From Candidatus Moraniibacteriota bacterium (GTDB lineage Bacteria > Patescibacteriota > Minisyncoccia > Moranbacterales > GWC2-37-73): a DNA stretch of 61,675 nucleotides. The position numbers and the translations under genes are program-made. Shown piece after piece: positions 29,468 through 38,820 of this stretch. The stretch covers positions 1 through 61,675 of the forward strand of contig JAAXUC010000006.1 of the NCBI GenBank assembly GCA_013336225.1, written 5' to 3'. The notes beneath the pieces were generated by a model. The model did not search any database, was not told the origin of the DNA, and saw only the letters and a list, made by a program, of their open reading frames with translations. Numbering within the stretch: position 1 is the stretch's first letter; each line of letters begins with the position of its first letter.

Positions 29468-29495
29468 GTCATTCCCGCGAAGGCGGGAATCCAGG
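29468..29495. repeat. GTCATTCC-type small hairpin repeat
   Basis: GTCATTCCCGCGAAGGCGGGAATCCAGG shares the 5' GTCATYC plus hairpin design seen at 45519, 45580, 51069 and 51123. Confidence 0.7.
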
Positions 29496-29502
29496 TTCGT
29501 CT

Positions 29503-29994
29503 TTAAATTTTTATAAGTGGGGTTTCCTTTTTTGGTTTCAGTGTGCGAGTCTTTTTAATTCTATCAATGATGAGCACGCCATCAAGATGATCCAATTCGT
29601 GCTGAATGGCTCTGGCCAGCAAATCGCGACCTTTCAATTTGGCAGGCTTGCCAAATTCATTCAGATAGCGCACTTGAACTTCACTGTAGCGAGAGATTGG
29701 AAAGAATTTCCCCGGAAAGCTGAGGCAGCCTTCTTCAGAAATGACTTTATTTTTTGACGTGGCTGTGATTTGGGGATTGATCATGACATATTGAGTTCCT
29801 TCTGTTTCAATCACGCACAAGCGCAAATTTGAGCCAACTTGTGTGGCAGCCAAGCCAACGCCATTGTTGGCATACATCGTTTCAATCATGGCCAAAACAA
29901 GCTCCTGCACGTCTTTGGCAAGAGGATCTTTCACTTTCACGGTCTTAACCCGCAAAGCAGGGTCTGGATTTTTTCGAATTTTCAGTGTAGTCAT
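29503..29994 (-). CDS. def: Peptide deformylase
   Basis: All three Def motifs are present: GVGLAATQVG, EGCLSFPG and HELDHLDG. Confidence 0.92.
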   Translation of the reverse strand: MTTLKIRKNPDPALRVKTVKVKDPLAKDVQELVLAMIETMYANNGVGLAATQVGSNLRLCVIETEGTQYVMINPQITATSKNKVISEEGCLSFPGKFFPISRYSEVQVRYLNEFGKPAKLKGRDLLARAIQHELDHLDGVLIIDRIKKTRTLKPKKETPLIKI

Positions 29995-29995
29995 A

Positions 29996-30859
29996 TTACA
30001 AGTCTAGCGGACTTTTGATGGTTTGTAAATTGGTATTTGCAACTTTTGTATAAATCTGGGTCGTTTCCAATTTGCTGTGTCCTAGCAGTTCCTGGATATA
30101 TCTAATGCTGGTGCCTGCCTCCAGCAGGTGAGTGGCAAAAGAATGCCTGAGAGTGTGGCAGGACACATTTTTTGTTATGCCTGACATTTCTGCGGATTTT
30201 TTGACAATCTTTCCAGCACTTTCAGCAGTCAGGTGACATTTTCCATCAGCGCCAGTGAAAAGATAATCACCAGGCTCTTTCAACGAAAGTTGTTTTGATA
30301 AAATTGGCACCAATTTTTCTGACAATAATGTGCAGCGGTCTTTATCGCCCTTGCCATGCCTCACCGTGATCATTTTTCTGTCCAAATCAAAATCGCGCAT
30401 CCTTATTTCCAATGCCTCGCTTACTCGCAGTCCTGCGGAATACATCAGGGAAATCAAAAAATGATGCTTGGGATTTTTTGTCACAAGAAGCATTTTTTCT
30501 ATTTCCTCTCTGCTGAGTATGGTGGGGAGATAGTTTGATTTTTTTGCTCCCTTGATATCAAAAAAGAATTTTCTCTTAAGGACTTGCCGATAATAAAATT
30601 TCAAAGCATTGAGCGCCACATTCAGGGTTGAATTGGCACAACCTTTATCTCGTATTGATTCCAGATAATTTTTGATATCATTATTGGTGACAGCTGTCGA
30701 ATTTTTGCCAATAAATTCCAAGAAAATCCTATTATAAAGCAAATATGACTCAATGGTTCTATGACTAAACCCTCTTATTTTCATTTCTCTCTCCAGGTTA
30801 TGCACAGAATCTCTATCAAGAGTGGTTGTCTTTGTATTTTTATGATAAAATGTATTCAT
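29996..30859 (-). CDS. Tyrosine recombinase, IntI/XerCD-clade, lacking the integron-integrase-specific insertion
   Basis: The N-terminal SAM-like motif is RGFSHRTIESYLLYNRIFLEF. Catalytic residues: R (AGLRVSE), K (HGKGDKDR), HxxR (HTLRHSFATHLL), H (LLGHS) and Y (QIYT). The C-terminus ends ..KSPLDL, as in IntI1 (..RSPLDAL, recalled from memory). The stop lies 1 nt from the def start codon. Confidence 0.85.
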   Translation of the reverse strand: MNTFYHKNTKTTTLDRDSVHNLEREMKIRGFSHRTIESYLLYNRIFLEFIGKNSTAVTNNDIKNYLESIRDKGCANSTLNVALNALKFYYRQVLKRKFFFDIKGAKKSNYLPTILSREEIEKMLLVTKNPKHHFLISLMYSAGLRVSEALEIRMRDFDLDRKMITVRHGKGDKDRCTLLSEKLVPILSKQLSLKEPGDYLFTGADGKCHLTAESAGKIVKKSAEMSGITKNVSCHTLRHSFATHLLEAGTSIRYIQELLGHSKLETTQIYTKVANTNLQTIKSPLDL

Positions 30860-30972
30860 AAGGCTCCATGCTTACATCAAAATTATATCATAATTCGTTG
30901 ATTAAGCCAAAAAAAACAACAGGTACGCATAAAAGGAGTTGATCTGAAATGTCGCTCCACTGCGTTCGCTCC

Positions 30973-31138
30973 ATTTCAAATCAACGCGCGCGCCTGACGG
31001 ACGCTGTCATCTTCCGTGTTGCTTCTCCCTTCGGTCGTGAGCAAACACATCAGATAACAGCGCCTATCCGAAATTTCCCTCAGAACCCTCTGGGATTCCT
31101 CGTGAAACATCGAATCAGGCGCGCGCGTTCAACGAAAT
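30973..31138. other. GC-rich, highly structured palindromic element (candidate recombination site or ncRNA)
   Basis: The closing stem is ATTTC..AACGCGCGCGCCTGA (30973-30997) paired with TCAGGCGCGCGCGTT..GAAAT (31115-31138). A nested hairpin CGCTGTCATCT..GTGTTGCT..C(TTCG)G..AGCAAACAC..AGATAACAGCG lies inside. The right end CGTTCAACGAAAT is identical to the right core of site S4 (35679-35691). Confidence 0.6.
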
Positions 31139-31277
31139 AAATTTTTTATCTTGGTGAATATTTAAAGTTTTGTGAATTGAATAGGGGCAGAAAATTTGCT
31201 TTTTTATTTATTTAAAGAGGGTGATAAGGAGTTTTTCTGCTCTTTGGGGAGCAGAAAAAATTAGCTCATAAAAACAA

Positions 31278-31320
31278 AAGCCGCCCGATTGGATTTCCCA
31301 ATACAAGGCGGCTTACTTTT
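31278..31320 (-). terminator. Rho-independent terminator for the gene at 31334-31768
   Basis: On the minus strand, AAGCCGCC..(loop)..GGCGGCTT is followed by TTGTTTTT. Confidence 0.7.
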
Positions 31321-31333
31321 TTGCTAATATTCC

Positions 31334-31768
31334 TTAACTGTTTTTTAGATCATTCCATCCGCGTCCCTCTGTTGTTTGGACGTTGAATGGTTTTTTTGCA
31401 ATTTCAGTTGGAACAAGAAAAGAGAAATATTTTCCAGTGTCTTCGAACACTTTGGCATATTCTTTCCTGTCATCACCAATCCAGAAGAGCAATCTGACAT
31501 TTTGGTTCTTATCAAGCATTGCTTGATTTGTCGGCTGACCCTTTATGACCTCTTTGCTGATTATGATAAGCTGATTCTTGCCCATATCAATAACGATGGG
31601 CTCCCGCATGTCTTCTCTGTATATCTTGTTCAACTCTCTAAGCTTGGAGTTTGTCATCTCCATGTGAGCCATTTCCGAATCCATATACATGAAGACGAAT
31701 AGGGCAGGAAAACATCCAACAACCAGCACGACGAGAATTGCTCCAATGATTCCAGATATTTTTTTCAT
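31334..31768 (-). CDS. Membrane-anchored hypothetical protein (cassette 1)
   Basis: The start MKKISGIIGAILVVLVVG is preceded by CAGGAGGATGTT. There is one TM helix and a soluble domain. I see no recognisable family. Confidence 0.6.
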   Translation of the reverse strand: MKKISGIIGAILVVLVVGCFPALFVFMYMDSEMAHMEMTNSKLRELNKIYREDMREPIVIDMGKNQLIIISKEVIKGQPTNQAMLDKNQNVRLLFWIGDDRKEYAKVFEDTGKYFSFLVPTEIAKKPFNVQTTEGRGWNDLKNS

Positions 31769-32032
31769 AACATCCTCCTGAGGTTCTAGTCCTCCGACTA
31801 TGATTTTTTTAAACAACTGAGTCCTTAACTAACCATATATTATACTCCCATTTTGCTAATTTGTCAATGGTTTTGATACCCATCGACATTTGGGGCTAAA
31901 ACAAGCCACAAATAAGGAGTCTTTTTTCAAAGAAATTCACCCCAACCCTCTTTCTTTGAAAAAAGACAAAAATTAAATTTTCTTATACGATAAATCAGTG
32001 TATAATGAATTTAACAACGAGATAAAAAATTG

Positions 32033-32172
32033 ACATCGTTGAACAACTCATATCTGGCTCAAGAAATTGACGCATTAATAGTTCAGAAGAAAATCAATTT
32101 CTTTCGACCCAAATTTTTGTGCAATTATATTGCGCAAAAACTTCAGATACACAGATACGTTGTACAAAATAT
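32033..32172. repeat. attC-like structured site S0 (short variant)
   Basis: ACATCGTTGAACAACTCATATCTGG ... CTTCAGATACACAGATACGTTGTACAAAAT. The inner hairpins are GAAATTGA/TCAATTTC and AAATTTTTGTGCAA/TTGCGCAAAAACTT. The junction CGACCCAAATTT is shared with S2-S5. Confidence 0.7.
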
Positions 32173-32354
32173 TGCCATGTAGTAATTGGGTTGGTGATTT
32201 TTAAAAAGCGAATTGTAATTCAATCGATGGTGCGTTGATAAAGTTAGTAATGGCAATACTGTCGTACAACACGCGATATGAGGCTGCATGGAAAAGAAAA
32301 TCCCAAATATTTTTTCTTTATAAGCACAGCCATTTTTTGGAATTTTTTAAGCAC

Positions 32355-32392
32355 AAAAAACCCACTCCGAAGTTTTGGAGTGGGTAGCGAGT
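32355..32392 (-). terminator. Rho-independent terminator for the 39-aa ORF
   Basis: On the minus strand, CCCACTCC-AAAACTTC-GGAGTGGG is followed by TTTTTTG. Confidence 0.75.
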
Positions 32393-32410
32393 TTGGCGGA
32401 AATGTTTTGA

Positions 32411-32530
32411 TTAACCTCCACCTAACAAAGTTGCGATTGTACCTACTACAGCAACACACATAATTGCTGCTACTGCATAAAACACGATGATGAGAACTAA
32501 TACATTTTCCGGTGATATTTTTATCAACAT
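32411..32530 (-). CDS. 39-aa hydrophobic micro-protein (cassette 2)
   Basis: CAGGAGGTTGAA precedes the ATG. Translation is MLIKISPENVLVLIIVFYAVAAIMCVAVVGTIATLLGGG, followed by a strong terminator. It is below the ORF-track cutoff. Confidence 0.55.
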   Translation of the reverse strand: MLIKISPENVLVLIIVFYAVAAIMCVAVVGTIATLLGGG

Positions 32531-32774
32531 TTCAACCTCCTGATTGAGTGGATTTTGTATATTACTCTAATTTGAGTACTTTTCATATTAGCACATTATG
32601 AATGAAATGTCAAATATTCATGGGGCAAAAATTCCAAAAAATGGCTAAAATAAGGAAAATATTTGGGATTTTCTTTTCCATTTCGCCCAAATTCAGCCCC
32701 TTCTGCTGGTGACTGAACAAACGTTGGCAATTTCCAATAGTTCGTGAGATAATTTAAATATCAGTGATTTAAAC

Positions 32775-32814
32775 GGGACTGAACTTCTCATATCGCGAAA
32801 CGTTCTGCGAAATT
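32775..32814. repeat. attC-like half-site S1 (right arm only)
   Basis: GGGACTGAACTTCTCATATCGCGAAACGTTCTGCGAAATT matches the right arms of S2-S5. The left half is degenerate or absent. Confidence 0.6.
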
Positions 32815-32852
32815 GCAAGACAACCTAACTAATTTAATTCCATTTTTTTCTT

Positions 32853-33158
32853 ATGAAATTTGAAAAACTAGTAAGGGATAATATTCCCGACATTATTAAA
32901 AAAGATGGTAAAGAGCCGATTACTCGTATTGTGGAGGGCAAAGAGTACGAGGAGGCTTTGACGCGAAAATTGCACGAAGAGGTTGGTGAGTTTTTAGAAA
33001 ATCCATGTGTAGAAGAGGCTGCTGATATTTTAGAAGTTTTGCATGCAATTTGCGCTCTGAAGGGTGAGGATTTAAAAACGCTGGAGGATGTTCGCCAGAA
33101 AAAAATGGAAGAACGTGGAGGTTTCAAGCAAGGGATATTTCTAGATAGTGCGGAGTAA
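32853..33158 (+). CDS. MazG-like nucleoside triphosphate pyrophosphohydrolase (small all-alpha type), cassette 3
   Basis: 101 aa. KLVRD.IP.II and EE..E..E......E.AD..EV are the E-x-x-E / E-x-x-D metal motifs of the MazG/HisE-like family. Confidence 0.7.
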   Translation: MKFEKLVRDNIPDIIKKDGKEPITRIVEGKEYEEALTRKLHEEVGEFLENPCVEEAADILEVLHAICALKGEDLKTLEDVRQKKMEERGGFKQGIFLDSAE

Positions 33159-33177
33159 TATTGAGAGGTTGTCTTGC

Positions 33178-33423
33178 AACATCGCAGAACACCAAATATC
33201 TGGCTCCAAAATTTTTCATTTATTAGAAATAGCAAGGAGTGAAAAATTTTCTCGACCCAAATTTCGCACTTTTCCGCTTAGTGATAACATATAGTATAAT
33301 TAGTTTAACAAAATAATCTAAATATCCAGGTTTTTAGCTTTAAAACCAAAGTGCGAAACTTCAGATATTTGGAAACGTTCTGCGAAATTCCATTTTTAAA
33401 AGAAATAATTTTTTGTTTTTTTG
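33178..33423. repeat. attC-like structured site S2
   Basis: The core runs from AACATCGCAGAAC (33178-33190) to GTTCTGCGAAATT (33377-33389). The inner hairpins are AAAATTTTTCA/TGAAAAATTTT and AAATTTCGCACTTT/AAAGTGCGAAACTT. The outer right arm is CCATTTTTAAAAGAAATAATTTTTTGTTTTTTT. Confidence 0.8.
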
Positions 33424-33454
33424 AAAATGAAAAGCCTACTCCGAAGAATAGGCT
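33421..33454 (-). terminator. Rho-independent terminator for the gene at 33477-33734
   Basis: On the minus strand, AGCCTATTCTTCGGAGTAGGCT is followed by TTTCATTTTC. Confidence 0.7.
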
Positions 33455-33476
33455 GTGTGTTTTTCGAAAGTGATTG

Positions 33477-33734
33477 TTAGCAATGTGCCCAGCAATCATT
33501 TTCTGTATCATAGTACCAACCGAGTTTTGCCATCTGGAGCACATCTTCTTCGGGCATTTGCATGACAGTTTTGTCAAAATCGCTTGCCCAAATGATGTCG
33601 TGATCAAATTGTGGCATAACATTTTCCTCGTATTTTGCGAGGATTTGAAGCCCATGCATAACTGTGTTTTTCTCTCCGATCATGCTACTGATGTCCATTT
33701 TTTCAATGATTTCCTTTGCTTTGTCAATGTCCAT
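33477..33734 (-). CDS. 85-aa acidic hypothetical protein (cassette 4)
   Basis: AAGGAGGGACTT precedes the ATG. The gene has its own consensus promoter and terminator. I see no recognisable family. Confidence 0.65.
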   Translation of the reverse strand: MDIDKAKEIIEKMDISSMIGEKNTVMHGLQILAKYEENVMPQFDHDIIWASDFDKTVMQMPEEDVLQMAKLGWYYDTENDCWAHC

Positions 33735-33781
33735 AAGTCCCTCCTTGTGAGCGATATTTGTGCCATTTATAGCAACAGTAC

Positions 33782-33810
33782 AGTATAGCAGAAAATAGAG
33801 CTTATGTCAA
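33782..33810 (-). promoter_or_regulatory. Near-consensus sigma70 promoter for the cassette-4 gene
   Basis: On the minus strand: TTGACA (33810-33805), a 17-nt spacer and TATACT (33787-33782). Confidence 0.7.
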
Positions 33811-33823
33811 GGGGCGCAGGTAA

Positions 33824-34835
33824 TGTCTACATACATATGGCGGTTTTCACAAGATAGCAGTATCTTGGAGGATGAGTATACATATGCCAACAACAATTAG
33901 AGAGGAGAGACTCCGATGGGTTGTTCCCATCTATCAGAAGGAGCTCAAACTAAAAGATGTAGCCAAAATGTGCCCTCACAGTAAGAGGAGCTTGGAGCGC
34001 TGGGTTGCTGCATACAAAAAGTATGGAGCAAGAGCCTTGGAACCAAAATCTACACGTCCCAAGAGCCATCCTAAAGAAACTGAGATCAGAATTAAAGAGA
34101 GAGTTATTGAACTGCGAAAGAAAACTAGAAAATGCGCCATAAAATTAAAATGGCAATTAGACAAAGAAGGTATTAATCTTCATAGAAATACCGTTCACAA
34201 AATTATCAAGAAAGAAAGATTAGTTAGAAAATATAGGATCAGAAAATTGAAATACAAATATGTTAAAGTGCCCCTGAGTCCAGGAGAGTTAGTTGAGATA
34301 GATGTAAAATATGTGCCAGAAAAGCTAGGAAACAAGCAGTATTATCAATTCACAGCCATAGACTGCTCTACGAGATGGAGGTATTTAGAAATATATGAGG
34401 ATTGCACAAATCACAGCTCGATAAAGTTTTTGGAAAAAGTGCTAAGAGTTGCACCATTTAGAATACGAGCTATTAAAACTGACAATGGAAGTAATTTCAC
34501 TAATAGATATACGGGGTATGATAAAAGCAGTGATCCTTTGAATCCAAGACTGCATGATCTAGATCTGATGTGTCAAAGTAGAAATGTCATTCACTATCTC
34601 ATTGATTCAGGCAAGCCCGCTCAGAATGGAAAAGTTGAAAGGAGCCACAGATCAGATCAGGAAATTTTCTATGATAGAAATAGGTTTAAGAATGTGGCTG
34701 ATTTAAAGAAGAAGATTAGGATGTGGAATAAGTATTACAATAACCTGGAACACTGCGGTTTAAATGGTAAAACTCCAAACGAAATGCTAGAATTATTAAC
34801 AATCCAAAAACCGACAAATGTATGTGTTTAAAACA
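33824..34835 (+). mobile_element. IS481-family insertion sequence (approximate ends)
   Basis: A single DDE (rve) transposase ORF is present. The imperfect terminal inverted repeats are TGTCTACATACATATGGCGG (left) and CCGACAAATGTATGTGTTTAAAACA (right). It lies between the cassette-4 promoter and site S3. Confidence 0.65.
33872..34831 (+). CDS. IS481-family DDE transposase (integrase core domain)
   Basis: An N-terminal HTH is present (..AKMCPHSKRSLERWV.AYKKYG..AL). DDE catalytic core: first D in VEIDVKYV; second in IKTDNGSNF; third region PAQNGKVERSHRS. Confidence 0.85.
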   Translation: MSIHMPTTIREERLRWVVPIYQKELKLKDVAKMCPHSKRSLERWVAAYKKYGARALEPKSTRPKSHPKETEIRIKERVIELRKKTRKCAIKLKWQLDKEGINLHRNTVHKIIKKERLVRKYRIRKLKYKYVKVPLSPGELVEIDVKYVPEKLGNKQYYQFTAIDCSTRWRYLEIYEDCTNHSSIKFLEKVLRVAPFRIRAIKTDNGSNFTNRYTGYDKSSDPLNPRLHDLDLMCQSRNVIHYLIDSGKPAQNGKVERSHRSDQEIFYDRNRFKNVADLKKKIRMWNKYYNNLEHCGLNGKTPNEMLELLTIQKPTNVCV

Positions 34836-34837
34836 CG

Positions 34838-35072
34838 CAAAAAACAAAAAATTATTTCTTTTGGGCTCAAAAAATGGAACATCGCAGAACACCGAATATG
34901 AGGTTCACCCCGATTTCACTTTTAAAAAATAAATTAAGGAATATCGGGACTCAACCCAAATTTTTGCCCTTTTTCTCTATTGATATATAATAAGGAAGCG
35001 GACAAAAACTTCTCATATTCGGATACGTTCTGCGAAATTCCATTTTTAAAAGAAATATTTTTTTGTTTTTTT
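34838..35072. repeat. attC-like structured site S3 (canonical copy, about 235 bp with about 65-bp inverted arms)
   Basis: The core runs from AACATCGCAGAAC (34878-34890) to GTTCTGCGAAATT (35027-35039). L-boxes are CGAATATGAG / CTCATATTCG. Hairpin H1 is CCCGAT/ATCGGG. A promoter-like TTGCCC-16-TATAAT sits in the H2 loop. Confidence 0.85.
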
Positions 35073-35078
35073 AGGCAA

Positions 35079-35113
35079 GAAAAAAGCCCAGCAAGCCAAT
35101 AGGCAAGATGGGC
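35079..35113 (-). terminator. Rho-independent terminator for the gene at 35144-35419
   Basis: On the minus strand, GCCCA..(loop)..TGGGC is followed by TTTTTTC. Confidence 0.6.
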
Positions 35114-35143
35114 ACACATTTCGTAATAAAGAGAAAAGTGTTA

Positions 35144-35419
35144 TTAACTAAATTCAGAAATTAAAAGAGCAATTTTGGCTTTCTGTTCCTGATTCAGACC
35201 TAGTTCCTCATTAAAACGCTTGAGTTCGGTTGTTATTGCCCCAAGGTCTTTTTCTGGCAACTCCATGCTTGCAAGAAGACCAAGCATGCATCTGATGATA
35301 ACAAACCTGGCTGTCGAAGTAATTGGATTACCGTCCGCATACTTGTTGCAAGCATTTCGAATTTCAGCCAAAATAAGCTCGTGGGCCGGTTTTTTATCTT
35401 TTCCCTCTGTCTGACTCAT
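35144..35419 (-). CDS. 91-aa hypothetical protein (cassette 5)
   Basis: CAGGAGGTGCTCA precedes the ATG. An upstream minus-strand promoter reads TTGACT (35486-35481), 17 nt, TAATGT (35463-35458). I see no recognisable family. Confidence 0.65.
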   Translation of the reverse strand: MSQTEGKDKKPAHELILAEIRNACNKYADGNPITSTARFVIIRCMLGLLASMELPEKDLGAITTELKRFNEELGLNQEQKAKIALLISEFS

Positions 35420-35490
35420 TGAGCACCTCCTGAGTATTTGTCGCTAATCGACTTTGCACATTACCATGTTAAAAACAGGCAGTCAAGTAG

Positions 35491-35726
35491 AGCAAAAAAC
35501 AAAAAATATTTCTTTTGGGCTCAAAAAATGGAATATCGCAGAACACCGAATATGAGGTTCAAAAAATTTGCACAATTTATATCAACAAGGAAAGCAAATT
35601 TTTCTCAACCCAAATTTTTGCCCTTTTCTTCTATTGATATATAATAAGGAAGCGGACAAAAACTTCTCATACTCGGAAACGTTCAACGAAATTCCATTTT
35701 TAAAAGAAATAATTTTTTGTTATTTT
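35491..35726. repeat. attC-like structured site S4
   Basis: The core runs from AATATCGCAGAAC (35531-35543) to GTTCAACGAAATT (35680-35692). H1 is replaced by the unrelated but still complementary pair AAAAATTTGC/GCAAATTTTT. The promoter-like TTGCCC-16-TATAAT is at 35617-35644. Confidence 0.85.
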
Positions 35727-35797
35727 TGGGAAAAGAAAAAGACTCGCGGAAATACGAGCCTTAATTTAGGAAATGGTTCTTTCCCCCGATTCAAATT

Positions 35798-35965
35798 TTA
35801 AAAATATGGAGTTAATATTGATAGAAGAACTCCGCCAACGACCAAGGAGCCTAAAAAATACCAAGGCTGGGATGGTGTCCATGTTCCCAATATTGCTGTT
35901 AAACCTACAAGGAAAGAACCAGTGAGGAAGCTTATTGTCATCTGAATAAGATATCTTTTCTCCAT
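35798..35965 (-). CDS. 55-aa two-TM micro-protein (cassette 6)
   Basis: AAAGGAGGACGTT precedes the ATG. Translation is MEKRYLIQMTISFLTGSFLVGLTAILGTWTPSQPWYFLGSLVVGGVLLSILTPYF. This is a different frame from the tracked ORF 35766..36029, which lacks an SD. A terminator hairpin GGCTCG..CGAGTC plus a T-run lies downstream. Confidence 0.55.
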   Translation of the reverse strand: MEKRYLIQMTISFLTGSFLVGLTAILGTWTPSQPWYFLGSLVVGGVLLSILTPYF

Positions 35966-36062
35966 AACGTCCTCCTTTTATAGAGTGTAGTGTCCTAGCG
36001 AGATTACTAGACATTAAACAGTAGCACACTTTATGCCGCTGTCAATAGTACAACCAAATTAT

Positions 36063-36268
36063 GAAAAAATAACAAAAAATTATTTCTTTTGGGCTCAAAA
36101 AATGGAACATCGCAGAACACCTAATATGAGGTTCATCCCGATTTCACTTTTTAATGTAAATCAAGGAGTATCGGGACTAAACCCAAATTTTTGCCCTTTT
36201 CTTCTATTGATATATAATAGGGAAGCGGACAAAAACTTCTCATATTCGGATACGTTATATGAAATACT
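36063..36268. repeat. attC-like structured site S5 (last copy; right arm degenerates after the GTT)
   Basis: AACATCGCAGAAC lies at 36106-36118. H1 is CCCGAT/ATCGGG. The promoter-like TTGCCC-16-TATAAT is at 36191-36218. The right side reads GGATACGTT then ATATGAAATA instead of CTGCGAAATT. Confidence 0.8.
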
Positions 36269-36366
36269 TTTCACAATACAAATATAGGGTTGTGGATAAC
36301 TTGCAATATGCAATTTTTATAAATAATGATATAATATCACTATGATAAAAATTAAGCATAAAATCC

Positions 36367-37197
36367 ATGCAAAATCCAAACGATCAAATCGCCATCTTTA
36401 GGGGAAAATCAATCAGAAAAATCATTTTTCAAAAGGAATGGTGGTTTTCTGTGGTTGATGTTTGTGGAATACTTACAGATAGTCCTGATTCAGGAGCTTA
36501 TTGGCGGAAGCTTAAACAAAGGCTTAACGAGGAAGGAAGTGAAGTCGTGACATTTTGTCACGGGTTGAAATTGGAGGCTCCAGACGGCAAAATGCGTGAA
36601 ACTGATTGCGCCAATACTGAAGGAATGTTTCGCATAATTCAGTCAGTCCCATCGCCCAAAGCCGAGCCATTAAAGAGATGGCTGGCTAAAGTCGGCTATG
36701 AACGTATTCAAGAAGTGGAAAATCCAGAACTTGCGAGCAAAAGAACGAGATTATTGTATAAACTTAAGGGTTATCCTGAAGAATGGATTGAAATGCGAAT
36801 GAGAGGCATTGCAATCCGTGAAGAATTGACTGACGAATGGCAAAAAAGAGGCGCGAAATACAAAGATGATTACGAGATTTTAACCGCAGAAATATCCGAA
36901 GCCACTTTTGGGATAAAGCCAAATGAATATAAAAAAGTAAAAGGTTTGAAAAATGAAAATCTTCGTGACCACATGGATGACTTCGAACTCATCTTGACCA
37001 TGCTTGGCGAACGAACCACTAAAGAAATTCACAAAACCAACGACTCAAAAGGGTTACCTAGACTTAAGGATGATGCTCGAAAAGGTGGTGCGGTTGCAGG
37101 CACAGCCAGAAAACAAATCGAAAGACAAATAGGCAGGCCGATTGTTTCAGAAAAGAATTTTCTGAGATCTAGTGGTAGGAAGAAAATTAAGAATTGA
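36367..37197 (+). CDS. Bro-N domain protein (antirepressor/DinD-like)
   Basis: The N-terminus F.GK.IR......EWWFSVVDVCGIL is the Bro-N fold signature. The C-terminal helical part resembles DNA-damage-inducible DinD-type proteins. Confidence 0.6.
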   Translation: MQNPNDQIAIFRGKSIRKIIFQKEWWFSVVDVCGILTDSPDSGAYWRKLKQRLNEEGSEVVTFCHGLKLEAPDGKMRETDCANTEGMFRIIQSVPSPKAEPLKRWLAKVGYERIQEVENPELASKRTRLLYKLKGYPEEWIEMRMRGIAIREELTDEWQKRGAKYKDDYEILTAEISEATFGIKPNEYKKVKGLKNENLRDHMDDFELILTMLGERTTKEIHKTNDSKGLPRLKDDARKGGAVAGTARKQIERQIGRPIVSEKNFLRSSGRKKIKN

Positions 37198-37362
37198 CCG
37201 ATGGGAATGCCCTCGTGATAAATTTCACCAAAAATATATCAAGGGAAAAACTTATTGTATCTCTTGAGAATGCTGTGTCTTTTTGATGTAGTGTTTTTTC
37301 TATATTCTTATGATTCAAATTGATGTATGATTAAGTTGCTGATGAGTTAATAGAAATAGCAA

Positions 37363-38820
37363 ATGCAAAAACAAATCTTAAAACTTATTTTCGTACTGAT
37401 GGTGTTTTTGATGTTGCCATCTTTTGCGAGTGCAGCAGTTTTTCTTGATGGGTCAACAATTGGATGCAATAATGGTTCAACCAACTATGCACCTATCACG
37501 CGATCATGCGGAAGTGGAAATGACACTGTTTATTTGGATTTGGCGAATTTCAACACAGGTATTGTGCCAAGTGTCACAAATTATGTTCGTTCTGGCAATT
37601 ATTTTCGCGATGGAGTTCCTGGATCCTTGGTTGTTGCTGTATCAAAATCTGGAATTGATAATAACAATCGCACCGTGATCAGTGCCTATCCAGGAGAGGA
37701 GCGCCAAGTTATTATTGGCACGGCAACGAGAGGAGCGACATATAATTCAAATCCAGGAGACACTGTGTCGCCGTATGGTGGCTCGCAAACATATTATCCC
37801 AACACGGTGCTTGCTATATCGGGTGCAAGTTATGTGACCATCAATGGGTTAAAGATATATGGACAAACATATACCTGGGGTGGTCACGATGTCACACTGC
37901 AAAATTCTGATTTTGGCGGCGGCGGACCTTCGGAATTGCAAGGTAACGTGGTGAAGTTGCATGGGGGAGACACTGGCGGTCAAAATTTGATTGTTCGCAA
38001 TAATGGGATTCATAATAGTTGTTGGGGTGAAAATGATGAAAATGGTAGCGCAATAATCATGTACAATGCCAGCGCTTTAATTGAGGGAAACATCTTTTAT
38101 GATAATTGGGGATATGATATCTTCACTAAAGATAGTGGCAATCAAGCTGGGCAAACAACTGAAATCAAAAATAATTTTTTTGCTCCTTCGGCAATTTTTC
38201 CAGCTGTTGGAGGAATCAGGGGGCACAATCAAGATGTGCAAATAGACAGCCTATTGATTCATCATAATATTTTTTTGCAGAAACAAACTGCATTTGCAGT
38301 TTTGGCAACACCAGTGATAAATAGAATTTATAATAATACTTTTATTAATTCTGCGTATGATATTGGGAACAGTTCAAGTGGTGGCCCACATCCAATTGAG
38401 TCTTATAACAATCTTTTCTATCATGCTACAAATCAATATTTTGCTGAATTATATATGGACACCGGCACGGTTTACACTGATTATTTTGCTGGTTCAAATT
38501 GGAATGTCTTTTATAACAATGGAAGCAAGTGGGGGAAATCTGCACCAGGAGCATTGACATGGGAAACGACCTTGAGTGGCTGGCAAACGCGAACTGGTCT
38601 TGATGGTTCTTCCATTATGGCAAATCCAAATTTTGTAAATGCTGCTGGCACAGTCCCGACAGACTTTAAACGTTCAGCATATATTGAGAACTTTGCTGGA
38701 TCAATGTATGGAACGCATGCTGGAGCATATGAAGTTGGCGATGAACAAATTGGCATTGATTGGTCAATTCAAGCTGATGACATTGCACCTGCTGCGCCAA
38801 GCGGACTTGGTGTGCTGTAA
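37363..38820 (+). CDS. Secreted right-handed beta-helix (pectate-lyase-fold) protein with conserved C-terminal APxxPxGL motif
   Basis: The signal peptide is MQKQILKLIFVLMVFLMLPSFASA. Repeated N-x-I/F-x-x-N turns are present. It ends DDIAPAAPSGLGVL-stop. It is a paralog of the gene at 60141-61553. Confidence 0.7.
   Translation: MQKQILKLIFVLMVFLMLPSFASAAVFLDGSTIGCNNGSTNYAPITRSCGSGNDTVYLDLANFNTGIVPSVTNYVRSGNYFRDGVPGSLVVAVSKSGIDNNNRTVISAYPGEERQVIIGTATRGATYNSNPGDTVSPYGGSQTYYPNTVLAISGASYVTINGLKIYGQTYTWGGHDVTLQNSDFGGGGPSELQGNVVKLHGGDTGGQNLIVRNNGIHNSCWGENDENGSAIIMYNASALIEGNIFYDNWGYDIFTKDSGNQAGQTTEIKNNFFAPSAIFPAVGGIRGHNQDVQIDSLLIHHNIFLQKQTAFAVLATPVINRIYNNTFINSAYDIGNSSSGGPHPIESYNNLFYHATNQYFAELYMDTGTVYTDYFAGSNWNVFYNNGSKWGKSAPGALTWETTLSGWQTRTGLDGSSIMANPNFVNAAGTVPTDFKRSAYIENFAGSMYGTHAGAYEVGDEQIGIDWSIQADDIAPAAPSGLGVL

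What the first reader, a model, noticed from the sequence alone, without database searches (positions are those of the whole stretch)
29996..37200. Integron-like island: IntI-type recombinase followed by single-gene cassettes separated by long attC-like palindromic sites
A tyrosine recombinase of the IntI/XerCD clade sits at 29996-30859 on the minus strand. Immediately to its right is a series of structured sites:
- 30973-31138
- S0, 32033-32172
- half-site, 32775-32814
- S2, 33178-33389
- S3, 34878-35039
- S4, 35531-35692
- S5, 36106-36256

The canonical sites start with AACATCGCAGAAC and end with its reverse complement GTTCTGCGAAATT. Variants of the right end are GTTCAACGAAATT, GTTGTACAAAATA and GTTATATGAAATA. 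The geometry is a 7-bp box with inner AAC/GTT triplets, then an asymmetric unpaired spacer (AC on the left, ATAC on the right), then a second box CGAATATGAG/CTCATATTCG. This matches the R''-spacer-L''...L'-spacer-R' layout of integron attC sites, where AAC/GTT is the most conserved feature.

Exactly one small gene lies between consecutive sites: a membrane-anchored protein, a 39-aa peptide, a MazG-like NTP pyrophosphohydrolase, an 85-aa protein, a 91-aa protein, a 55-aa peptide and a Bro-N protein.

It differs from known integrons in four ways:
- The sites are 140-212 bp, or 235 bp with their extended arms.
- The recombinase lacks the IntI-specific insertion.
- Most cassettes are on the same strand as the recombinase.
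- At least three cassettes carry promoter-like sequences (two with TTGAC-type -35 boxes), and most have their own SD and terminator.

This combination may represent an undescribed cassette-capture system.
Basis: partly seen in the sequence, partly recalled or inferred. Interest (0 to 1): 0.85.

Follow-up and report, generated by a model that had tools for sequence, protein, structure and literature searches.

The report
Integron-type cassette array in CPR bacterium
This is a chromosomal gene-cassette array of the integron type in a candidate-phyla-radiation (Patescibacteria) bacterium; its recombinase lacks the domain thought to define integron integrases, and the same system recurs in well over a hundred other CPR genomes, a group in which I found no published description of integrons.

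Summary
A 287-aa tyrosine recombinase (29996-30859, minus) sits beside an attI-like site (crossover GTT at 30938-30940). Seven co-oriented hairpin sites follow and delimit cassettes up to 36256.

The sites have the attC layout: R''(…AAC)-L''…L'-R'(GTT…). A strict site pattern hit at least 119 loci in other genomes, almost all Patescibacteria.

- The L boxes covary.
- 189 of 190 right halves in multi-site loci are co-oriented.
- Every homologous recombinase found (21 loci) lies divergently on the R'' side.
- Bases right of GTT pair with the left arm of the next site, not the same site.
- One MazG-like cassette sits in two different arrays of one metagenome, with near-identity starting and ending exactly at GTT.
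- A syntenic relative (recombinase 79% identical) has entirely different cassettes between the recombinase and priA.

It differs from classical integrons. The integrase lacks the IntI additional domain, although VchIntIA is its best sequence and fold match. The sites are long and sequence-conserved, with 20-50 bp extended arms. About 12% carry the gene inside the hairpin loop. In this window most genes are reversed and have their own promoters.

Verdict: new variant of a known kind, high interest.

The parts
29996..30859 (-). Tyrosine recombinase (287 aa), the presumed integrase of the array. It is IntI/XerA-like but lacks the IntI additional domain.
   Evidence: Pfam PF00589 + PF13495. NCBIfam NF040815 scores 227.9 (cut-off 220). 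TIGR02249 IntI scores 225.7 in two pieces (cut-off 265). Best PDB sequence hit is VchIntIA 2A3V; its residues 185-239 correspond to only 13 aa here. Best fold match is 2A3V.
30921..30950 (+). attI-like double-strand core site: L-arm AGGTACGCATA, 6-bp spacer, R-arm GTTGATCTGAAAT. The inferred crossover GTT is at 30938-30940.
   Evidence: Homology with the syntenic relative L120 stops exactly after GGAGTT. The equivalent motif (A)ACTTCG[CT]ATA-6/7 nt-GTT-NNNN-GAAAT lies 40-145 nt upstream of the recombinase start in 16/25 loci by a strict regex, against a background of 0.009 per segment.
30882..30910 (-). Promoter-like site for the recombinase gene (TTGGCT-17-TATAAT with TG).
   Evidence: consensus match only.
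30939..31127 (+). Cassette 0: gene-less and GC-rich. It has an R-box hairpin (GTTGATCTGAAATG / CATTTCAAATCAAC) and two alternative left arms for one right arm (AACGCGCGCGCCTGA or ACATCAGATAAC-AG-CGCCTATCCG versus CGAATCAGGCGCGCGC-GTT).
   Evidence: The same element type occurs in at least 14 other loci. No Rfam match.
31128..32159 (+). Cassette 1: membrane-anchored protein gene 31334-31768/31816 (minus) with its own TTGACA-17-TATAAT promoter (31867-31839). It ends with degenerate site S0 (AAC 32042-32044 … GTT 32159-32161).
   Evidence: The flanking arms 31127-31156 / 32015-32044 are complementary, with the compensatory pair GTTCAACGA / TCGTTGAAC (I3). The first ~130 bp of the cassette are homologous to the second cassette of L120.
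32160..32802 (+). Cassette 2. Site S1 has AAC at 32268-32270 and GTT at 32802-32804. The 39-aa peptide gene (32411-32530, minus), its promoter and its terminator lie inside the hairpin loop.
   Evidence: L'' GCGATATGAG pairs 10/10 with L' CTCATATCGC. Inner inverted repeats at 32288-32347 / 32627-32681 (I2 and I13).
32803..33377 (+). Cassette 3: MazG-like NTP pyrophosphohydrolase gene 32853-33158 (+) and site S2 (AAC 33188-33190, GTT 33377-33379).
   Evidence: The same cassette (about 86% nt identity to the window's) is found in other arrays. Between two of them (L125, L126) near-identity is bounded by GTT at both ends. Arms 32802-32826 / 33166-33190 are 92% complementary and have a cassette-specific sequence (I9).
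33378..35027 (+). Cassette 4: 85-aa gene 33477-33734 (minus) with promoter 33810-33782 and terminator 33454-33433. It is interrupted by an IS481-family element (about 33824-34830). It ends with site S3 (AAC 34888-34890, GTT 35027-35029).
   Evidence: Arms 33398-33421 / 34839-34862 are 100% complementary (I4).
33872..34831 (+). IS481-family transposase (319 aa) of the inserted IS. It is a secondary insertion and not part of the cassette system.
   Evidence: NF033577 E = 4.5e-62; Pfam rve / rve_3 / HTH. TIRs at 33829-33847 / 34807-34825.
35028..35681 (+). Cassette 5: 91-aa gene 35144-35419 (minus) and site S4 (AAC 35542-35544, GTT 35681-35683).
   Evidence: Arms 35048-35070 / 35494-35516 share the cassette-specific variant AAATATTT (I12).
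35682..36254 (+). Cassette 6: 55-aa gene 35798-35965 (minus) with terminator 35762-35739, and site S5 (AAC 36116-36118, GTT 36254-36256).
   Evidence: Arms 35702-35727 / 36065-36090 are 100% complementary, including the private variant GTTATTTTT (I1).
36257..38820 (+). Variable region distal to the last site: Bro-N protein gene (36367-37197) and a 485-aa NosD-like secreted protein gene (37363-38820). No terminal site was detected. The region is absent from the syntenic relative.

Best explanation
The island is a sedentary chromosomal integron of a previously undescribed lineage that is widespread in the candidate phyla radiation.

**What the sequence and comparisons show**
- The recombinase gene is flanked by a double-stranded attI core: an L-arm like AACTTCGYATA, a 6-7 bp spacer, and an R-arm GTT-NNNN-GAAAT.
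- Each cassette ends in an attC-type imperfect palindrome. Its left arm is ACATC-NNNN-AAC-AC-[10-nt L'']-GTT. Its right arm is AAC-TT-[10-nt L']-GAWAC-GTT.
- The cassette boundary lies at the GTT of the right arm.

**What I infer**
- When one DNA strand folds, the two arms rebuild a duplex that mimics attI. The mimic carries conserved unpaired marks: a TT bulge, three extra bases in the central spacer, and a 2x2 mismatch in the R arm.
- The recombinase cuts and exchanges strands at the GTT of the R arm, so cassettes are inserted at attI and excised between sites.
- The sequence after each GTT therefore belongs to the following cassette. It pairs with that cassette's own left arm for 20-50 bp, giving a very long hairpin in the free (circular) cassette.
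- This enzyme lacks the IntI helix that reads extrahelical bases. I infer that recognition relies more on base sequence, which fits the unusually strong sequence conservation of these sites.
- The single-stranded substrate, the strand used and resolution by replication are inferred by analogy with classical integrons.

In this array most cassette genes are self-contained units with their own promoter, SD and terminator, so their expression does not depend on position.
For: **Site anatomy and covariation**
- 191 non-identical sites from more than 100 genomes were anchored and compared.
- The L''/L' box is 85-98% paired. Its variable columns show 4-5 pair types, against 38-49% paired when partners are shuffled.
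- Loops range from about 40 to 690 nt.

**Array behaviour**
- 189 of 190 right halves in multi-site loci are co-oriented.
- Median cassette length is 864 nt. 77 of 82 dominant ORFs are co-oriented with the sites.

**Link to the recombinase**
- 21 of 119 arbitrary blocks of up to 8 kb contain a homologous recombinase of about 275-290 aa. It is always divergent and always on the R'' side. The same holds in L120-L122.
- attI is conserved next to the gene in 16/25 loci by a strict regex (alignment).

**Crossover position**
- Across 109 consecutive site pairs, bases y1-3 and y10-22 after GTT pair with the next site's left flank at 0.6-0.8. They pair with the same site only at the random level of about 0.4-0.5.
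- In the window, the arms flanking each cassette are 83-100% complementary and carry cassette-private variants (I1, I3, I4, I9, I12).

**Mobility**
- An identical 101-aa MazG-like protein lies in two different arrays of JGI sample 3300077746. DNA near-identity starts right after the upstream GTT and ends at the cassette's own GTT.
- The same cassette occurs in Magasanikbacteria and Falkowbacteria arrays.

**Variable content at a fixed locus**
- Between the window and L120, recombinase, def, fmt, rhodanese and priA are 61-83% identical. No island gene is shared.
- Relatives with the same attI carry different first cassettes.

**Enzyme**
- The best PDB sequence and fold match is the integron integrase VchIntIA.
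Against: - No experiment or read-level data shows recombination. Everything here is comparative.
- The recombinase fails the curated IntI model cut-off and lacks the additional domain, which published work holds to be necessary for attC recombination (Messier & Roy 2001, cited in PMC9668308).
- The recombinase passes the XerA-type model NF040815. CPR enzymes of this kind have been assumed to be Xer substitutes (PMC8138268).
- In-array hairpins have only the AAC/GTT triplet plus a few conserved pairs in the R box. It is therefore unclear how excision sites are recognised.
- The strict GTTRRRY / RYYYAAC consensus is met by only about 27-28% of sites.
- I could not scan whole genomes, so sites far from any recombinase (CALIN-like arrays) are not quantified.
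Confidence: 0.85

Rival explanations
1. Xer/dif-type system. The recombinase is the cell's single chromosome-dimer resolvase (XerA/XerH/XerS-like). The 'attI' next to its gene is the dif site, as with xerS-difSL. The cassettes are elements that exploit Xer (IMEX or pdif-module-like), piled up at dif by ordinary double-strand recombination.
For: - The recombinase passes the XerA-type NCBIfam model and lacks the IntI domain.
- It is inherited vertically with def-fmt and priA.
- The attI has the two-arm, 6-7-bp-spacer layout of a dif-like core.
- It is the only tyrosine recombinase in the 61.7-kb window.
- Smyshlyaev et al. assume that CPR 'Cand' recombinases replace Xer (PMC8138268).
- By my own recollection, not checked here, Xer can use folded single-stranded substrates (CTX phage).
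Against: - The repeated sites are not dif copies. They are hairpins whose arms covary and lie 40-690 nt apart.
- All sites are co-oriented, whereas pdif modules alternate in orientation (the pdif property is from my own knowledge).
- The island is not at the GC-skew extremum of the window; the cumulative maximum is at about 57.5 kb.
- One array lies about 3 kb from dnaA/rpmH.
- This rival is not exclusive. The enzyme could do both jobs.
Confidence: 0.1
2. A family of miniature inverted-repeat transposable elements (MITEs) of about 235 bp inserted repeatedly between small genes. It would be mobilised in trans by a transposase such as the IS481 enzyme in the island.
For: - The units of about 235 bp are 75-95% identical and have long terminal inverted repeats (D1-D3, I7).
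- An IS481 transposase is present in the island.
- The assembly of the same sample breaks inside a repeat.
Against: - The outer arms co-vary across the gene (right arm of site n with left arm of site n+1), not within a unit.
- All copies are in one orientation and clustered.
- No copy lies elsewhere in the window.
- The IS481 TIRs (ACATACATATGGCGGTTTT) are unrelated to the site ends.
- Shared-cassette boundaries fall at an internal GTT, not at unit ends.
- The association is with a tyrosine recombinase in 21/21 loci.
Confidence: 0.02
3. A shufflon- or inverton-like switch. The recombinase inverts each gene segment between the inverted repeats that flank it, changing expression rather than capturing genes.
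For: - Every cassette is flanked by inverted repeats of 20-50 bp.
- In this window, five cassette genes (31334-35965) are reversed relative to the family norm of 77:5. This is what inversions would produce without changing the sites.
Against: - Inversion does not explain different cassette content at the same locus.
- It does not explain the same cassette in different arrays bounded at GTT.
- It does not explain the hairpin covariation within sites.
- Each flanking repeat is only a half-site (an R arm), not a full core.
- Reversed genes have their own promoters, so flipping would not switch them.
Confidence: 0.02

Closest known systems
Sedentary chromosomal integrons (e.g. the Vibrio cholerae superintegron: VchIntIA, attIA, VCR-type attC sites)
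   Same: - A divergent tyrosine recombinase gene lies next to an attI and a co-oriented array of cassettes of about 0.4-1.5 kb.
- Sites are imperfect palindromes with R''(…AAC)-L''…L'-R'(GTT…). The commonest boxes are GCCTAAC / GTTAGGC.
- The cassette boundary is at the GTT.
- Sites within one array resemble each other.
- Cassette content differs between relatives at a fixed chromosomal locus.
- Cargo is typical: MazG, NUDIX, acetyltransferases, nucleotidyltransferase, a restriction-modification gene and many unknowns.
- VchIntIA is the best sequence and fold match of the recombinase.
   Different: - The integrase lacks the roughly 40-aa IntI-specific additional domain and scores below the TIGR02249 cut-off.
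- The sites are much more conserved in sequence: AACTTC, ATA, GAWAC, GAAAT, ACATC and a loop motif CCACCCAAATT.
- The central region is partly paired (4 bp) with a 1x4 asymmetric loop, instead of an unpaired central spacer.
- The extrahelical bases are a TT bulge on the right arm.
- The stems continue 20-50 bp beyond the R box into the cassette.
- About 12% of sites hold the ORF inside the loop.
- Gene-less GC-rich cassettes with two alternative left arms are common.
- The host is Patescibacteria.
Archaeal integrons (Ghaly et al. 2022, PMC9668308)
   Same: They also extended integrons to an unexpected, largely uncultured group, using metagenome-assembled genomes. The arrays consist of short ORFs separated by folding attC sites.
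   Different: The archaeal IntIs are reported to keep the IntI-specific additional domain. The CPR enzymes do not.
Single-recombinase Xer systems (archaeal XerA/dif, XerS/difSL, XerH/difH) and Xer-exploiting elements (IMEX, Acinetobacter pdif modules)
   Same: - The recombinase has the same size and domain layout, without the IntI insertion, and passes the XerA-type model.
- A two-arm core site lies next to the recombinase gene, as with xerS-difSL.
- Small modules accumulate at a recombinase site.
   Different: - The repeated sites are folded-hairpin mimics with covarying arms, not copies of a 28-bp duplex site.
- Orientation is uniform.
- No link to the replication terminus was seen.
'Cand' subgroup of simple tyrosine recombinases (Smyshlyaev et al. 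2021, PMC8138268)
   Same: The window's recombinase fits the paper's description of this subgroup: Xer-related tyrosine recombinases of candidate phyla. Membership was not tested here.
   Different: That paper treats them as presumed Xer substitutes and reports no associated sites or cassettes.

Membership tests
Integron (functional definition: intI + attI + attC-bounded cassettes) | A tyrosine recombinase gene lies next to the cassette array and is transcribed divergently from it. | tested here: met
   True in the window and in 21/21 loci with a homologue. All sites lie on the R'' side and are co-oriented.
Integron (functional definition: intI + attI + attC-bounded cassettes) | An attI site lies next to intI, and the first cassette joins it at a GTT. 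| tested here: met
   A conserved L-arm / 6-7 bp / GTT-NNNN-GAAAT motif lies upstream of the gene in 16/25 loci by regex. Homology between the window and L120 ends at this GTT. The first cassettes differ in relatives. This is comparative inference only.
Integron (functional definition: intI + attI + attC-bounded cassettes) | attC sites are imperfect palindromes with R''-L''…L'-R', conserved AAC/GTT and a structure that matters more than sequence. | tested here: met
   Box layout and L-box covariation were shown on 191 sites. The strict RYYYAAC / GTTRRRY consensus is met by only 27-28%. Sequence conservation is higher than expected for attC.
Integron (functional definition: intI + attI + attC-bounded cassettes) | Cassette boundaries (the recombination crossover) lie at the G/TT of R'. 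| tested here: met
   Flank-pairing statistics over 109 site pairs. Exact homology limits of a shared cassette in L125 versus L126.
Integron (functional definition: intI + attI + attC-bounded cassettes) | attC length is about 57-141 nt, with an unpaired central spacer and extrahelical bases in the L box. | tested here: inconclusive
   The median AAC-to-GTT distance is 127-128 nt, but the range is 64-686 nt. The central region has 4 paired bases plus an asymmetric loop. A TT bulge sits on the right arm. The features are analogous but not the same.
Integron (functional definition: intI + attI + attC-bounded cassettes) | Cassettes are mostly promoterless, co-oriented and expressed from a Pc promoter. 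| tested here: inconclusive
   Family-wide orientation is 77:5 canonical. In the window five genes are reversed and have their own consensus promoters. Pc was not identified.
Integron (functional definition: intI + attI + attC-bounded cassettes) | Detection by IntegronFinder (attC covariance model plus intI_Cterm HMM). | not testable with these tools
   Neither model is available here. Rfam has no matching family.
Integron integrase IntI (TIGR02249 / additional-domain clade) | The IntI-specific additional domain (helix I2 around patch III). | tested here: not met
   VchIntIA residues 185-239 align to only 13 residues (195-207). The model shows a short beta-hairpin there and no helix. All array-linked homologues are about 273-292 aa.
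Integron integrase IntI (TIGR02249 / additional-domain clade) | A score above the curated family cut-off. | tested here: not met
   TIGR02249 scores 225.7 against a cut-off of 265, in two stretches. PRK15417 scores 151.5 against 435.
XerA-type recombinase (NCBIfam NF040815, 'site-specific tyrosine recombinase/integron integrase') | A score above the curated family cut-off. | tested here: met
   The score is 227.9 against a cut-off of 220, full length.
Xer/dif chromosome dimer resolution | A single dif site at the replication terminus. | tested here: inconclusive
   The cumulative GC skew keeps rising through the island and peaks at about 57.5 kb. One related array lies near dnaA. No complete genome could be scanned.
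MITE | Dispersed copies in both orientations, with terminal inverted repeats inherited together and target-site duplications. | tested here: not met
   Copies are clustered and uniform in orientation. The arms are inherited with the neighbouring cassette, not with the unit.

The most novel reading that the evidence does not exclude
Patescibacteria carry their own large integron lineage, and its integrase never had, or has lost, the IntI additional domain. The domain regarded as the hallmark and a requirement of attC recombination would then not be needed for hairpin-site cassette capture. Instead, a Xer-like enzyme would recognise a sequence-conserved hairpin that mimics its duplex attI. This would be either the ancestral state linking Xer recombinases to integrons or an independent invention. 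The same enzyme and attI might also serve as the chromosome's dimer-resolution system.
Probability: 0.55. Interest if true: 0.92.

Novelty: new variant of a known kind. Interest (0 to 1): 0.85.

Why it matters
Integrons are the classic bacterial system for capturing and shuffling genes. Their definition rests on an integrase with a special extra domain that reads extrahelical bases of folded attC sites.

Here the whole architecture is present in a huge, uncultured and genome-reduced bacterial radiation: integrase, attI, hairpin sites, cassettes bounded at GTT, and variable content. The extra domain is absent.

If the system is functional, several things follow:
1. The known host range of integrons extends to the CPR, where gene flux mechanisms are poorly known.
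2. Searches that require the IntI-specific HMM would not call these complete integrons. One groundwater survey kept only 'complete' IntegronFinder calls.
3. It offers a natural experiment on how a Xer-like enzyme can use folded DNA. This bears on the long-standing question of how integrons arose from Xer-type recombinases.
4. It gives a compact, sequence-defined hairpin recombination system that could be tested as a tool.

Tried and rejected
- **Rfam.** Neither the gathering threshold (whole window) nor E <= 1 (island) gave a credible family for the sites or for the GC-rich gene-less cassette.
- **tRNA/tmRNA scan.** Nothing was found, so this is not a tRNA-targeted island.
- **Viral contigs.** The strict site pattern gave 0 hits, so there is no sign that the sites are phage-borne.
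- **Metagenome scan.** The Moranbacteria-type attI pattern returned only 3 loci. That was too few for a population-level view of first-cassette variation.
- **Exact-sequence look-ups.** The 91-aa cassette protein is not on record. The MazG-like protein's only exact match is a 3.9-kb contig 100% identical to window 29468-33404, presumably the same organism.
- **Short ORFs across the sites** (e.g. MEHRRTPNMRF…). Rejected as coding, because the frame is not kept between S3, S4 and S5.
- **63-aa ORF over cassette 0** (30949-31140). Treated as spurious for the same kind of reason, although one pipeline called it a gene.
- **Site as a conventional double-strand core.** The 23-bp right half is not an inverted repeat (inspection).
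- **Phylogeny.** No formal tree of IntI, XerA, XerC/D and the CPR enzymes was made, because reference sequences could not be fetched in full. Placement rests on HMM, PDB and fold scores.
- **Literature.** Searches for integrons in CPR/Patescibacteria found nothing relevant.

Full report

Yes. The ORF at 29996-30859 (minus) is a complete tyrosine recombinase with Phage_integrase and SAM_4 domains.

To its right lies a set of related palindromic sites. All six are on the + strand and all lie between 32139 and 36265. None is expected by chance. Two other probes and half-site HMMs find nothing outside the island.

The three best copies (S3, S4, S5) share 75-95% identity over 88-136-nt repeat blocks that together span about 235 bp per unit. 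They fold far better than shuffled sequence, with z = -9.6 and -11.2 for the two strands.

Five details need correction:
- An IS481-family element sits inside the '85-aa cassette'. Its transposase is at 33872-34831 and its TIRs at 33829-33847 / 34807-34825.
- The 'half-site' at 32775-32814 has its left half at about 32261-32285, with a 10/10 complementary L box. The 39-aa gene therefore lies inside the loop of that site.
- The element at 30973-31138 is part of a gene-less GC-rich cassette (30939-31127). It is not the first recombination site.
- Bro-N has no distal site.
- The first gene is probably 144 aa.

**2. What the sites look like across genomes**

Nearly all are labelled Patescibacteria/CPR: Moran-, Uhr-, Falkow-, Magasanik-, Kuenen-, Peregrini-, Peri-, Saccharibacteria and others. 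A few short contigs carry archaeal or other labels. Several long 'Gammaproteobacteria' TPA bins may have unreliable labels.

Anchoring 191 non-identical complete sites gave these consensus arms:
- left arm: acaTC-NNNt-AAC-Ac-[NgNaTATNNG]-G.t
- right arm: AAC-tT-[CNNATAtNcN]-gA.AC-GTT-aNNNg-AAAT

The commonest outer boxes are GCCTAAC and GTTAGGC, the textbook attC R''/R' pair. Only 27-28% of sites meet the strict consensus.

The 10-bp inner box covaries strongly. It is 85-98% paired, with 4-5 pair types at the variable columns. Shuffling partners gives 38-49% paired. The two arms lie 40 to about 690 nt apart. This is the signature of selection on an intrastrand hairpin, not on a duplex protein-binding repeat.

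**3. Arrays, orientation and the recombinase**
- In 65 of 66 loci with two or more sites, all sites point the same way. That is 189 of 190 right halves.
- The median distance from one site's GTT to the next site's AAC is 864 nt. The dominant ORF is co-oriented with the sites in 77 of 82 cassettes.
- The fetched blocks are arbitrary pieces of up to 8 kb, yet 21 of 119 contain a homologue of the window's recombinase (273-292 aa). In all 21 it lies on the R'' side and is transcribed away from the array, exactly as in the window. Three further loci fetched through recombinase homologues show the same.

**4. attI**

Immediately upstream of the recombinase start codon, diverse loci carry (A)ACTTCG[CT]ATA, then 6-7 nt, then GTT-NNNN-GAAAT. 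In Moranbacteria the L-arm is AGGTACGNATA. A strict regex finds this in 16/25 loci, 40-145 nt from the start codon. The background is 0.009 per segment.

In the window the GTT is at 30938-30940. Homology between the window and the syntenic relative L120 runs through …ATAAAAGGAGTT and stops there. Relatives with the same attI have different sequences after the GTT.

The attI is thus a conventional two-arm core. The folded attC-type site reproduces it. The complement of the left arm gives ATA-6 nt-GTT, as in attI. The right arm carries the same L-arm letters (AACTTCGCATA) but has three extra bases in the spacer. Its TT has no partner.

**5. Where the crossover is, and whether cassettes move**

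Over 109 consecutive site pairs, positions 1-3 and 10-22 to the right of GTT pair with the mirrored positions left of the next site's AAC at 0.58-0.81. They pair with the same site only at the random level of 0.35-0.70, which equals the shuffled values. Positions 7-8 are a conserved 2x2 mismatch.

The window shows the same pattern:
- the arms flanking each cassette are 83-100% complementary;
- they carry private variants (GTTATTTTT / AAAAATAAC in I1; an entirely different arm GCAAGACAACCT in I9; the compensatory pair GTTCAACGA / TCGTTGAAC in I3);
- the two arms of a single site match less well (I25 83%, I7 96%).

This is what a cassette bounded at GTT predicts. It is the opposite of what a MITE predicts.

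There is also direct comparative evidence. A 101-aa MazG-like protein (88% identical to the window's) is encoded in two different arrays of one JGI sample, with different neighbours. The two DNAs differ up to …AAACGTT, are nearly identical from there through the gene and its site up to …GAATACGTT, and diverge again immediately after. The same cassette occurs in Magasanikbacteria and Falkowbacteria arrays.

**6. Variable content at a fixed locus**

L120 comes from a 469-kb JGI contig. It has the same backbone as the window: rhodanese-fmt-def-recombinase | island | priA. Protein identities are 61-83%, and 79% for the recombinase. None of the window's island genes is present in L120. Its island instead holds a MazG fusion, DUF6326, NUDIX, an EamA-like protein and other genes, all in the canonical orientation.

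The first ~130 bp and the last ~30 bp of the window's cassette 1 are homologous to L120's second cassette, although the cargo differs.

**7. The enzyme**
- NCBIfam places it just above the cut-off of NF040815 ('site-specific tyrosine recombinase/integron integrase', XerA type): 227.9 against 220.
- It falls below the IntI cut-off of TIGR02249, at 225.7 against 265, and matches in two pieces.
- Its best PDB sequence match is the integron integrase VchIntIA (164.5 bits), ahead of XerA (145 and 130) and XerD (84). IntI residues 185-239, the additional domain, correspond to only 13 residues.
- An AlphaFold model (pLDDT 81) has a short beta-hairpin there. Its best fold match is again 2A3V (E = 6.6e-17), followed by XerA.
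- The family is very large: 7,420 of the 8,000 scored candidates have E <= 1e-20. Members are about 286 aa and are annotated XerD or 'integron integrase' by their sources.
- The closest plasmid-borne relatives are Clostridium 'xerA' genes at 41% identity.
- Smyshlyaev et al. grouped CPR recombinases as 'Cand' and assumed a Xer role (PMC8138268).

**8. Mechanism proposed**

Shown by sequence and comparison: the architecture, the hairpin covariation, the boundary at GTT, cassette sharing between arrays, and the variable content.

Inferred by analogy with classical integrons:
- the recombinase binds the L-arm and R-arm of duplex attI and of the folded site;
- it cleaves at the GTT of the R arm and exchanges one strand pair, and replication resolves the product;
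- the conserved unpaired marks (the TT bulge, the 1x4 spacer loop, the A·A/A·C mismatches) tell the enzyme which strand and orientation it holds. This job is done in classical IntI by the missing domain.

The 20-50-bp extended arms would stabilise the hairpin of a free cassette. Why they are needed is unknown.

In this window the reversed genes carry consensus promoters and terminators. Their expression therefore does not need an integron promoter.

**9. Rivals**

The MITE reading is contradicted by arm inheritance, clustering, orientation and the internal GTT boundaries.

A pure Xer/dif-IMEX reading fits the enzyme's family and the attI layout. It does not fit the hairpin sites or the uniform orientation. 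There is also no visible terminus link: the skew maximum is at 57.5 kb and another array lies next to dnaA. It remains possible that the enzyme also resolves dimers.

A shufflon-like inversion system could explain the reversed genes here, but it explains none of the comparative data.

**10. Novelty**

Searches of the held literature found no description of integrons in CPR/Patescibacteria. A 2021 review's phylum list omits them (PMC8618304). The archaeal integron paper stresses that archaeal IntIs keep the additional domain (PMC9668308).

Pipelines that demand the IntI-specific HMM would report these arrays at best as integrase-less attC clusters. One groundwater survey kept only 'complete' integrons (PMC12259885).

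I therefore rate this a new variant of a known kind. It is an integron by architecture and behaviour. It is not a member of the IntI family as currently defined.

Noticed in passing
window 33824-34830: An IS481-family insertion sequence lies inside cassette 4, between the 85-aa gene's promoter and site S3. Its transposase is at 33872-34831 and its 19-nt TIRs at 33829-33847 / 34807-34825.
   Followed up: yes
window 30939-31127; also L011, L017, L023, L025, L027, L029, L041, L044, L060, L091, L096, L097, L103, L117: A recurrent gene-less GC-rich cassette of about 190 nt. An R-box hairpin with a CGCTTCGCTCC-type loop is followed by two alternative left arms that can each pair with the single right arm. 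One gives a perfect 15-bp stem AAC-GCGCGCGCCTGA / TCAGGCGCGCGC-GTT. It looks like a structural switch or a small RNA gene. There is no Rfam match.
   Followed up: partly
site loops, e.g. window 34952-34961, 35606-35615, 36179-36188; most sites in L001-L119: A conserved single-stranded-looking motif (C)CACCCAAAT(T) lies 10-45 nt upstream of the AACTTC of the right arm, in otherwise variable loops. Classical attC loops have no conserved sequence. Its function is unknown; it might bind an accessory factor.
   Followed up: no
window 34964-34991, 35618-35645, 36191-36218 (+ strand): The S3-S5 site subfamily carries TTGCCC-16-TATAAT inside its loop, pointing into the next cassette. Sites of the same subfamily (…TTGATATATAATAAGGAAGCGGACAAAAACTTC) recur in many other genomes (L009, L013, L029, L032, L057, L086, L104). 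This may be a promoter embedded in the recombination site.
   Followed up: partly
window 32268-32804; 24 further sites in L015-L117: In about 12% of sites the ORF (roughly 50-190 aa) lies inside the hairpin loop, between perfectly complementary L boxes, instead of between sites. The cargo can therefore sit in either of the two loops of the cassette's long stem.
   Followed up: partly
attI L-arms in L093, L035, L043, L097 and right arms of many sites: The L-arm consensus AACTTCGTATA is nearly the loxP arm (ATAACTTCGTATA, quoted from memory). It is probably coincidence, but it is striking for a tyrosine recombinase site.
   Followed up: no
L124 (Logan SRR11449212 contig, 3937 bp) = window 29468-33404: An independent assembly, 100% identical to the window, ends inside the right arm of S2. 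This is consistent with repeat-induced or heterogeneity-induced assembly breaks at the sites. The run would be the place to look for recombination junctions.
   Followed up: partly
window 36367-38820: The Bro-N protein and a 485-aa NosD-like secreted protein lie between the last site and priA. They are absent from the syntenic relative L120, yet no site bounds them. They may be decayed cassettes or a separate insertion.
   Followed up: partly
L036, L062, L080 (archaeal labels); L009, L064, L074, L097 and others ('uncultured Gammaproteobacteria/Bdellovibrionales' TPA bins): Typical sites occur on contigs labelled as archaea (all under 3.2 kb) and on long contigs labelled Proteobacteria. This could be mis-binning or mislabelling, or cassette exchange beyond the CPR. 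It was not resolved.
   Followed up: no
window 31128-31262 vs L120 8995-8860 (minus strand): The first ~130 bp of cassette 1, including a hairpin TTTTTCTGCTC…GAGCAGAAAAA, and its last ~30 bp are conserved between the two genomes. The cargo genes between them are unrelated and lie on opposite strands. This suggests cargo replacement inside a conserved cassette frame.
   Followed up: no
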